Of a stretch of 64,000 nucleotides of DNA, positions 50,622-51,981 are shown one piece after another. The position numbers were made by a program, and so were the translations under genes. The notes under the pieces were generated by a model that was not told the DNA's origin, did not search any database, and saw only the letters and a program-made list of their open reading frames with translations. Numbering within the stretch: position 1 is the stretch's first letter; every line of letters begins with the position of its first letter. The DNA comes from the human T2T-CHM13v2.0 reference genome, Homo sapiens. The stretch lies in NCBI RefSeq assembly GCF_009914755.1, contig NC_060933.1; one strand, written 5' to 3'.

Positions 50622-50754
50622 GTGAGTGCGGGCAGCTTTGGGGACCATGTACTAGGGCTTGCCGGCCCTCATCAAGCTTACTGCCCTGTCCCTTGGACCG
50701 TGTCCCCACCATGGGGTCTCTTCGGCATCCCTGGCATGCCTGCTCCCTTGTCCT

Positions 50755-50792
50755 GAGCATATGAAGTGGAAAGGAGGTTGAAACTGGGCAGC
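50755..50792 (+). repeat. Exact 38-bp copy of the exon 9 5' end (52536-52573) in intron 7
   Basis: gagcatatgaagtggaaaggaggttgaaactgggcagc is present identically at both positions. Confidence 0.97.
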
Positions 50793-51981
50793 TCCCTTGT
50801 CCGGAGCTTACCGCCACCCCAGCCCAGTCCCTGCAGAGGGGCCAGCAATGGGGCTTGTGTTGTCTCGTCAGCATGGGCACTCCTCACCACCGAGGCCACC
50901 TTGGAGCTGCGCAGCCAGTCACCCGCCTTCTCATCCTGGCTGGGCTCACTATGACCGAGCCCATGGCTGGAGACCCAGCTCAGAGAGCCTTGTGTGGAGA
51001 CAGCAGCCATGACATCAGAGCCAGCGAGGGAGGAGGGCGCTAGCTGCTAATTAAGACAATAGTAGGGGACATTTTGAGTCTGTGCTGAAGGAGAAGGCCC
51101 GTCATGAGCCACTGTGTGCCCCTAGATGACGTTAGAACAAATCCCAGACATTCCTCTGTTTCATTAAATATTCCACTATTTCTGAAGGGCTTCCTTTCCT
51201 TCTAAGTAACATAGCTGTAATACTGTTGTCACACCTTGAAAAATGAACAATTAACAGCATTTCCCTGGTATCATCAAATAGCCAATTGGTGTTCAGATTT
51301 TTAAATCGTTTTATAGGGTTGGTTTTTTTTTTTTTTTTCATTTTAAATAAGTATCAAACTGAGGCCCTCATATTTTAATGATTTATAAGGCTCAGAATCT
51401 TCTGTAATCTCTGGGTCCCTCCTCCCTCCGTTGGCTTCCTCATAGTCGCAGCTATTTAGGAAAGAGTTGTGGATTTCCCAGGGTCTGGCCCAGGCTCTGT
51501 CTCCGAGGATAACCTGGGGACCAGTCCCAGCTGCGATGCAGCTGCCCCAGCCTTGTCTCCTGCTCCTGAGTGTGGTTGGGAGGCCAGGTAGCTGGACACA
51601 GACTGGGGCTTCCTCTCTCTGTCTGAGTACTGCCCCCTCAAGTGGTCTGAGTGAGTCCCCTCAGCTCTGGGCCTCGGTTTCCCTGTCTGTGCAGGGCTGG
51701 ACTGACTAGTCTGTGCTGTCTCAGACACAGCCTCTCCCCCGACCCCCTTCCATGGAGGCTGGGGTTGGGCCAGAGCCAGAGAGCTTCTCCCAGGGAGGCC
51801 CCAGGCTGCTGGTGAAGCCGCAGAGGTGGACAGGGCACCAAGGTGTAGGCGGGCAGGAGCTGGAGCCTGGGCTGGGCCGGGAAAGGCCTGTGCTGGTCTC
51901 CGCCGCTCCCTGATCTAGAGCCATGAGAAGCCCGTTCATGGGAGCAAGGTGGGGCACCAGCCACTCCTGTCTCTCTCCCAG

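What the first reader, a model, noticed from the sequence alone, without database searches (positions are those of the whole stretch)
50742..50807. Exact 38-bp copy of the start of exon 9 pasted into intron 7 between a 17-bp duplication (templated-insertion scar)
Seen: 50755-50792 is identical to 52536-52573, which is the acceptor G plus the first 37 nt of exon 9, 1781 bp downstream. The copy sits between gctcccttgtcctgagc (50742-50758) and gctcccttgtccggagc (50791-50807), which are 16/17 identical. It overlaps them by microhomologies of GAGC on the left and GC on the right. Inference: an ancestral single 17-mer was copied, synthesis switched to exon 9 at GAGC for ~32 nt, then re-annealed upstream, as in FoSTeS or polymerase-theta templated insertions. 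The left end coincides with the exon boundary, so an mRNA or cDNA template is also possible, since the exon 8-9 junction also has G before AGCAT. Zero mismatches suggest a fairly recent event or selection.
Basis: partly seen in the sequence, partly recalled or inferred. Interest (0 to 1): 0.8.

Follow-up and report, generated by a model that had tools for sequence, protein, structure and literature searches.

The report
Exon-9 fragment copied into PHF2 intron
A 49-base insertion in an intron of the human PHF2 gene, made of 32 bases copied from a nearby exon plus a 17-base repeat of the target site, is a clean but ordinary scar of error-prone DNA repair or replication, and two old PHF2 copies on chromosome 13 still show the site as it was before.

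Summary
Window 50755-50792 equals 52536-52573 at 38 of 38 bases. It sits between two 17-mers that agree at 16 of 17. The match does not extend into the flanks. It is the only exact exon-derived copy of 16 nt or more for any of the 16 exons in the window.

Two intron-containing PHF2 duplicates on contig C13 have one 17-mer, no exon-9 fragment and an exact 49-column gap, which is 32 + 17. So a single 17-mer with G at position 13 is ancestral, and PHF2 gained 49 nt.

Every inserted base is templated. The junctions overlap by GAGC (4 nt) and GC (2 nt). There is no poly(A) and no L1 cleavage motif.

Best reading: one event with two microhomology-primed template switches, copying exon-9 DNA 1.7 kb downstream (FoSTeS/MMBIR or Pol-theta-like). 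An RNA template cannot be excluded.

One difference in 66 nt-lineages gives only a loose date, anywhere from recent to tens of millions of years. Zero mismatches do not require selection.

This is a new instance of a known kind of mutation. No function is indicated. Primate orthologues, human haplotypes and raw reads could not be examined here.

The parts
50742..50758 (+). Left copy of the 17-nt target-site duplication. It carries the derived T at 50754. The last 4 nt, GAGC, are the left junction microhomology with exon 9.
   Evidence: (D10). Both C13 copies and the right copy have G at this position, so T is derived.
50759..50790 (+). The 32 nt found only in PHF2 intron 7. They are copied from exon 9 (52540-52571) and are 75% purine.
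   Evidence: (chr9-only block 50742-50790 = 17 + 32).
50755..50792 (+). Full 38-nt block identical to the acceptor G plus the first 37 nt of exon 9.
   Evidence: (D1).
50791..50807 (+). Right copy of the 17-mer, identical to the ancestral single copy. The first 2 nt, GC, are the right junction microhomology. The ends GCTCC and GGAGC are complementary and can form a 5-bp hairpin stem.
   Evidence: Hairpin -2.9 kcal/mol as DNA; 7 of 200 shuffles fold as well.
52536..52573 (+). Source: last base of intron 8 plus exon-9 bases 1-37, which code for [12 protein letters not shown]. The source is intact.
   Evidence: The exon-9 peptide has homologues on C13 (two), C23 and C7, so the exon is the old copy and the intron copy is derived.

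Best explanation
This is a single-event templated insertion with a target-site duplication. It is a neutral scar of error-prone replication or break repair in the germ line of a human ancestor. Ancestral intron 7 had one 17-mer, followed directly by TTA(A/C)CGCC. In the proposed event, a free 3' end at this site ended in GAGC on the top strand. In the mirror-image version it ended in the complement of GC on the bottom strand. This end paired with 4 nt (or 2 nt) of microhomology at the intron-8/exon-9 boundary, 1732 nt downstream on the same or the sister DNA. It was extended by about 32-38 nt and then came off. It re-paired through the other microhomology 17 nt behind its point of departure, and synthesis went on. 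The result was a gain of 49 nt: 32 nt of exon-9 sequence plus a second 17-mer. Shown here: the anatomy, the empty site, the direction exon to intron, and the absence of retrotransposition marks. Inferred: the order of switches, a DNA rather than an RNA template, the enzyme (FoSTeS/MMBIR-type replicative switching or polymerase theta), and neutrality.
For: The 38/38 identity and the 16/17 flanking duplication are far beyond chance. All 49 extra bases are accounted for by the two templates, with no untemplated bases. The junction overlaps are 4 nt and 2 nt. Both C13 PHF2 duplicates show the empty site with an exact 49-column gap and G at 17-mer position 13. In a three-way alignment of window 48700-53438, this is the only chr9-only block of 5 nt or more apart from a 9-nt one. 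The flanks of the two 38-mers are unrelated, so this is not a remnant of a larger duplication. Exon 9 is old coding sequence, with homologues on C23 and C7. In the C13 copies, exon 9 differs from PHF2 at 3 of 38 and 5 of 38 positions. These are all private changes, except for one position where all three sequences differ. So exon 9 is the source. There is no A-run at either end of the insert and no TTTT/A-like site at either edge of the duplication. Literature: iterative template switches with microhomology and short templated insertions 'from nearby sequences' are described as the FoSTeS/MMBIR signature (PMC5120786, passages). Templated insertions primed by minimal base pairing are the Pol-theta hallmark (PMC12426944, passages).
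Against: No true orthologue or human haplotype was examined. The empty site rests on paralogues, and one precise deletion between the 17-mers in the ancestor of the C13 copies would give the same picture. The Poisson test does not exclude an age equal to the chr9/C13 split (P(k<=1) = 0.11). The insert (32-38 nt) is longer, and its template farther away (1.7 kb), than is usual for Pol-theta insertions, which are 'generally small (<25 bp)' and copied from flanking sequence (PMC12426944). The left end falls on an exon boundary, which an RNA template would also explain. Nothing in the sequence identifies the polymerase or shows that replication was involved.
Confidence: 0.7

Rival explanations
1. 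The scar is the same, but the template was PHF2 RNA (nascent pre-mRNA or spliced mRNA) lying at the break. It was reverse-transcribed by a repair polymerase with RT activity or by L1 ORF2 acting without its endonuclease.
For: The break lies inside the transcribed gene, so its own transcript is nearby. The copy starts at the first base of exon 9 plus one G that exon 8 also supplies. Templated sequence insertions at breaks are reported to be enriched for transcribed sequence and reduced by RT inhibitors (PMC5110952, read in part).
Against: The copy does not cross an exon-exon junction, so nothing requires RNA. Normal splicing produces no RNA species with a 5' end at the start of exon 9 (established knowledge). 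The GAGC microhomology alone explains the position; 2 of 33 GAGC sites within +-2.5 kb lie next to an exon boundary. The class-2 insertions described in that review have no target-site duplication.
Confidence: 0.15
2. A staggered double-strand break with 17-nt overhangs was filled in, and a free exon-9-derived DNA fragment or oligonucleotide was captured by end joining.
For: Fill-in of staggered ends gives a target duplication of exactly this kind. The 17-mer is bounded by complementary 5-mers and can form a small hairpin. Only 91 of 63,983 17-mers in the window have such ends. A structure-dependent pair of nicks is therefore conceivable.
Against: Ligation of a free fragment needs no junction overlaps, yet both junctions have them. 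A 4-nt overlap has a chance of about 1/256 (my arithmetic). No source for a free 34-38-nt exon-9 fragment is evident. The hairpin is weak (-2.9 kcal/mol).
Confidence: 0.07
3. The 17-32-17 structure is older than the C13 duplications. The C13 empty sites result from one precise deletion between the 17-mers. In a further variant, the structure is what remains of a larger ancient duplication.
For: Direct repeats of 17 nt that are 32 nt apart can recombine or slip to give a precise loss (established knowledge). An age equal to the split is not formally excluded (P = 0.11).
Against: It needs two events instead of one. Both C13 copies share the empty state. There is no flank similarity to support a larger duplication. 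Even so, the structure itself would still have arisen as a templated insertion.
Confidence: 0.05
4. L1 endonuclease-dependent retrotransposition (TPRT) of a PHF2 mRNA fragment, or an assembly artefact.
For: A 17-nt duplication lies within the usual L1 TSD size range (recalled).
Against: There is no poly(A) tract, no polyadenylation signal, and no TTTT/A-like site at either edge. These are the defining class-1 features listed in PMC5110952. As for an artefact, the two 17-mers differ by one base and every base is templated, which is not the look of a collapse or a polishing error. Reads were not available to test this.
Confidence: 0.02

Closest known systems
FoSTeS/MMBIR iterative template switching (short templated insertions at breakpoint junctions)
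   Same: Microhomology at each junction. The insert is copied from an intact nearby template in direct orientation. The return to the original template gives a small copy-number gain. A base change lies next to a junction, as expected of error-prone synthesis (PMC5120786 passages; PMC4937565 abstract).
   Different: The event is tiny (49 nt) and stands alone, with no associated large CNV. Replication dependence cannot be shown from sequence.
Polymerase-theta-mediated end joining with templated insertion
   Same: Priming on 2-4 nt of homology, then dissociation and re-annealing, with no untemplated bases (PMC12426944 passages).
   Different: The review describes inserts as generally <25 bp and copied from sequence flanking the break. 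Here the insert is 32-38 nt and its template is 1732 nt away. The scar shows a duplication of the target, not a deletion.
Templated sequence insertions / TSIPs (Onozawa and Aplan), classes 1 and 2
   Same: A stretch copied from a transcribed locus is inserted at a break while the donor stays intact. Microhomology as in class 2, and a target duplication as in class 1 (PMC5110952).
   Different: It fits neither class. It has a duplication but no poly(A), no poly(A) signal and no L1 site (not class 1). It has a duplication, which class 2 lacks. The donor is 1.7 kb away in the same gene rather than distant. At 32 nt it is below the 73-414 bp of the experimental inserts.
Short-range template-switch mutations (four-point model of Loytynoja and Goldman)
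   Same: A transient switch to a nearby template during replication, explaining a complex change as one event.
   Different: [quoted passage not shown] Here the copy is direct, comes from 1.7 kb away, and returns behind the departure point.

Membership tests
Microhomology-primed templated insertion by iterative template switching (FoSTeS/MMBIR type) | The inserted bases are identical to another locus, which remains intact | tested here: met
   38/38 identity to 52536-52573. Exon 9 is intact and annotated as coding.
Microhomology-primed templated insertion by iterative template switching (FoSTeS/MMBIR type) | Microhomology at the junctions | tested here: met
   GAGC (4 nt) on the left and GC (2 nt) on the right.
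Microhomology-primed templated insertion by iterative template switching (FoSTeS/MMBIR type) | Two or more switches in one event (departure and return) | tested here: inconclusive
   The 17-32-17 architecture with no stray bases is what two switches predict. That it was a single event is inferred by parsimony.
Microhomology-primed templated insertion by iterative template switching (FoSTeS/MMBIR type) | A pre-insertion (empty) site exists | tested here: met
   Both C13 paralogues have one 17-mer and a 49-column gap. These are paralogues, not orthologues.
Microhomology-primed templated insertion by iterative template switching (FoSTeS/MMBIR type) | Arises during DNA replication or break-induced replication | not testable with these tools
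   Sequence alone does not show it.
Pol-theta (TMEJ) templated insertion | The template lies in the sequence flanking the break, and the insert is generally <25 bp | tested here: not met
   The template is 1732 nt away and the insert is 32-38 nt. Criterion from PMC12426944, which allows occasional runs >20 nt.
Pol-theta (TMEJ) templated insertion | Dependence on POLQ | not testable with these tools
   Needs genetics.
Class 1 TSI / L1 ORF2-mediated insertion (TPRT) | Target-site duplication of at least 5 bp | tested here: met
   17 nt, 16/17 identical.
Class 1 TSI / L1 ORF2-mediated insertion (TPRT) | Poly(A) tract and upstream polyadenylation signal | tested here: not met
   The insert ends ...ACTGGGCA on one strand, and its complement has no A-run either. 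There is no AATAAA.
Class 1 TSI / L1 ORF2-mediated insertion (TPRT) | Insertion at a 5'-TTTT/A-3'-like site | tested here: not met
   The edges read CATGCCT|GCTCCC and GGAGC|TTACC. Neither strand has a T-run.
Class 2 TSI (RNA-derived patch at a break) | No target-site duplication; end-joining features at the junctions | tested here: not met
   A 17-nt duplication is present. Microhomology is present.
Class 2 TSI (RNA-derived patch at a break) | RNA origin (for example spliced exons in the insert) | tested here: inconclusive
   The copy stops one G before exon 9, and intron 8 and exon 8 both supply that G.
Short-range template switch (four-point model) | The copied fragment is in reverse-complement orientation | tested here: not met
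   The copy is direct, with both matches on the + strand. Criterion from PMC5453318.
Remnant of a larger segmental or tandem duplication | Similarity continues into the flanks | tested here: not met
   Local alignment ends exactly at the 38-mer. The best flank alignments are 14-17 nt with scores 21 and 17.

The most novel reading that the evidence does not exclude
The break in intron 7 was patched by reverse transcription of PHF2's own nascent or spliced transcript, that is, germ-line RNA-templated repair in cis. The copy's start at the first base of exon 9 would be a trace of that RNA. A more remote variant is that the purine-rich exon-9 start, now duplicated in intron 7, acts as a decoy for splicing factors and has been kept by selection.
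Probability: 0.12. Interest if true: 0.6.

Novelty: new member of a known kind. Interest (0 to 1): 0.3.

Why it matters
This is an unusually legible example of a templated insertion. Every base is assignable, both microhomologies are visible, and a pre-insertion state survives in the same genome. It can serve for teaching and as a positive control for scanners of direct-orientation template switches over kilobase distances, which the reverse-complement four-point model does not cover. It combines a target duplication with microhomology and no poly(A), so it falls between the two published TSI classes. It adds 49 nt deep in an intron of PHF2, and nothing here suggests an effect on the gene.

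Tried and rejected
- **Extended homology around the two 38-mers.** None was found.
- **Chance.** Rejected.
- **CpG decay as the cause of the 17-mer mismatch.** I first assumed this and then rejected it. The change is G>T within CCGG, a transversion.
- **L1 TPRT.** Rejected for lack of poly(A) and of a cleavage site.
- **DNA transposon footprint.** Considered and dropped. The insert has no terminal inverted repeats, and a 17-nt duplication is not a typical size (the size is recalled).
- **Ectopic gene conversion from exon 9.** Dropped, because the empty site offers no homology beyond 4 + 2 nt.
- **Cryptic exon.** The AGs in and beside the copy are preceded by G or by a purine-rich stretch, and no consensus donor follows (my reading). 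The hub's table lists no exon there.
- **Structured RNA.** Rfam gave 0 matches in 49000-54000.
- **Hairpin as the driver.** The 17-mer folds, but weakly. I keep it as a note, not a mechanism.
- **Literature.** 'PHF2' together with 'templated insertion' returned 1 paper, judged unrelated from its title and abstract start, on radiation dose and choice of double-strand-break repair pathway. I saw no report of this insertion in that one search, which does not cover subscription journals or variant databases.
- **Orthologous primate sequence, pangenome haplotypes and raw reads.** No tool here holds them.

Full report
**Observation**

Reading the window and the repeat finder (family D1) confirm that 50755-50792 and 52536-52573 are identical at 38 of 38 bases, 1781 nt apart and on the same strand.
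- 52536 is the G of the AG acceptor of intron 8, and 52537 is the first base of exon 9 by the hub's table.
- With up to 3 mismatches the 38-mer has only these 2 matches in the window, and none in 100 dinucleotide shuffles.
- The flanking 17-mers at 50742-50758 and 50791-50807 differ at one base, T versus G at position 13. With up to 3 mismatches they are the only 2 matches in the window. The expected count is 0.24, and 1 of 100 shuffles reached 2.
- The copy overlaps the left 17-mer by GAGC and the right one by GC.
- A gapped local alignment of 350 nt around each copy returns exactly the 38-mer. The best alignments of the left and right flanks are 14 and 17 nt, with scores 21 and 17.
- I scanned all 16 annotated exons of the window (with 5 nt on each side) for exact matches of 16 nt or more elsewhere in the window on either strand. 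This one came up and nothing else.

**The outgroup is in the same genome**

The window's assembly could be searched.
- The 66-nt site finds itself, exon 9, and one place on contig C13.
- A 1101-nt query spanning exon 7 and intron 7 finds two C13 places at 85% and 84% identity, plus a 168-nt exon match on C23.
- A 501-nt query around exon 9 finds the same two C13 regions at 89% and 88%.
- BLAST of 9-kb stretches shows that copy A is collinear with window 48694-53438 (4773 columns, 87.3%), with more matches back to 45001. Copy B is collinear with 48603-56553 (86.8%) and runs off the fetched stretch.
- They are therefore genomic, intron-containing duplicates of part of PHF2. They are presumably the annotated PHF2 pseudogenes on chromosome 13 (names recalled, not checked).

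At the site, both copies read CATGCCT, one 17-mer with G at position 13, then TTAACGCC, with a gap of exactly 49 columns against PHF2. In a three-way MAFFT alignment of window 48700-53438, the chr9-only blocks of 5 nt or more are this 49-nt block (placed at 50742-50790) and one 9-nt block at 51319-51327.

**Direction**

Exon 9 encodes [12 protein letters not shown]... in the PHF2 frame. The 35-residue exon peptide has full-length matches in both C13 copies (94% and 83%, the latter with one stop), on C23 (60%) and on C7 (53%). The last two are presumably the paralogues PHF8 and KDM7A (names recalled).

The C13 exon-9 copies differ from PHF2 within the 38-mer at 3 and 5 positions. These are private to one copy or the other, except for one position where all three sequences differ. 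So the PHF2 exon has kept the ancestral sequence. Exon 9 is the donor and the intron copy is derived.

**Anatomy of the event**

The gain is 49 nt: 32 nt found only in exon 9 (50759-50790) plus a second 17-mer.
- There are no untemplated bases.
- The insert has no A-run at either end on either strand and no AATAAA.
- The edges of the duplication (CATGCCT|GCTCCC and GGAGC|TTACC) have no T-run on either strand.
- It therefore fails the poly(A), signal and TTTT/A criteria of L1-mediated class-1 templated insertions.
- Its duplication also sets it apart from class 2 (PMC5110952, parts 1-2 of 4 read).

The simplest path is two template switches. A 3' end ending in GAGC pairs at the intron-8/exon-9 boundary, 1732 nt downstream in the ancestral allele. 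It is extended through ...GGGCAGC and comes off. It then re-pairs by GC at the start of the 17-mer, 17 nt behind where it left. The mirror-image path on the other strand gives the same product.

Iterative switching with microhomology and short templated insertions from nearby sequence is described as the FoSTeS/MMBIR signature (PMC5120786, passages). Priming on minimal homology with dissociation and re-annealing is the Pol-theta model. However, those inserts are said to be generally under 25 bp and copied from the break's flanks (PMC12426944, passages). The size (32-38 nt) and the distance (1.7 kb) therefore lean towards the replicative model. Sequence cannot name the enzyme.

**RNA or DNA**

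The copy begins at exon-9 base 1 plus a G, which intron 8 (acceptor AG) and exon 8 (last base, 52069) both supply. The next base to the left mismatches in both cases, so nothing discriminates between them.

The coincidence with the exon boundary is mild. Of 33 GAGC sites on this strand within +-2.5 kb, 2 lie next to an exon boundary. Normal splicing gives no RNA ending at the start of exon 9 (established knowledge). I put an RNA template at about 0.15.

**Age**

Intron K2P distances are 0.115 (chr9-A), 0.113 (chr9-B) and 0.088 (A-B). The chr9/C13 split therefore lies at about 0.057 substitutions per site per lineage. That is roughly the depth I recall for human versus New World monkey. This calibration is recalled, not computed.

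The scar offers 34 + 32 = 66 nt-lineages and shows 1 difference.
- The maximum-likelihood depth is 0.015.
- P(k<=1) is 0.94 at 0.006, 0.74 at 0.015, 0.41 at 0.03 and 0.11 at 0.057.
- The event is probably younger than the C13 duplication, in line with the empty sites. It could be anything from recent to tens of millions of years old.
- Zero mismatches in the 32 unique bases are unremarkable: exp(-32 x 0.03) is about 0.38 (my arithmetic). They do not call for selection.

The one difference is a G>T transversion 5 nt from the left junction. T is derived, since both C13 copies and the right copy have G. It may be a later substitution, or a by-product of error-prone synthesis after the second switch if synthesis ran leftwards. 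Raised variant density beside breakpoints is reported (PMC4937565, abstract).

**Extra features**

The ancestral 17-mer begins with GCTCC and ends with GGAGC, which are complementary. As DNA it folds into a 5-bp stem with a 7-nt loop at -2.9 kcal/mol, and 7 of 200 shuffles fold at least as well. Only 91 of 63,983 17-mers in the window have such perfect 5-nt terminal complementarity. So the duplicated unit is exactly a small hairpin. This is a post-hoc observation. It might mark a stall or nick site, but the structure is weak.

Immediately to the left lies a 9-nt unit repeated 2.1 times (50724-50742), which is also present in the C13 copies. Rfam finds nothing in 49000-54000.

**What remains open**

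No orthologous primate sequence, human haplotype panel or raw read set is reachable with these tools. The empty site therefore rests on paralogues. One precise deletion between the 17-mers in the C13 ancestor is a possible, less parsimonious alternative. Polymorphism in humans and read support were not tested.

One literature search for PHF2 together with 'templated insertion' gave 1 paper, judged unrelated from its title and abstract start. I saw no report of this insertion, but variant databases and subscription journals were not covered.

**Verdict**

It is a tidy new instance of a known class of mutation, with no sign of function. Interest is modest.

Noticed in passing
G000 C13:18239000-18248000 (L012) and C13:18152500-18161500 (L013), minus strand: Two intron-containing partial duplicates of PHF2, about 87 kb apart on contig 13. 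Intron K2P is 0.115 and 0.113 to PHF2 and 0.088 to each other. Copy A covers window 45001-53438 in pieces, and copy B covers 48603-56553 and beyond. In copy B the exon-9 frame has a TAA stop.
   Followed up: partly
window 50791-50807 (and the single copy in L005/L006): The duplicated 17-mer is exactly a small hairpin unit: a 5-bp stem GCTCC/GGAGC with a 7-nt loop, -2.9 kcal/mol as DNA. Only 91 of 63,983 17-mers in the window have such ends. It may be relevant to where the break or stall occurred.
   Followed up: partly
window 50724-50742: A 9-nt unit (GGCATCCCT) repeated 2.1 times directly abuts the left 17-mer. It is also present in the C13 copies, so it is older than the insertion.
   Followed up: no
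window 51319-51327; after 49569, 51532, 51688, 53276: Other small lineage-specific indels between PHF2 and the C13 copies: a 9-nt chr9-only block TTGGTTTTT, a 26-nt block present only in copy B, and 5-, 6- and 13-nt blocks present in both C13 copies. They were not examined for templating.
   Followed up: no
G000 C23:53300990-53301157 and C23:53292024-53292128; C7:141432653-141432754: Exon-level matches to PHF2 exon 7 (74% DNA identity) and to the exon-9 peptide (60% and 53%) on contigs 23 and 7. These are presumably the paralogues PHF8 and KDM7A (names recalled).
   Followed up: no
window 63293-64000 and beyond: The hub's table lists a predicted 'keratin-associated protein 5-5-like' model (LOC124902215) with no coding part in the window. 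It starts 11 nt after a PHF2 exon. It looks like an odd prediction inside the PHF2 3' region. I did not examine it.
   Followed up: no
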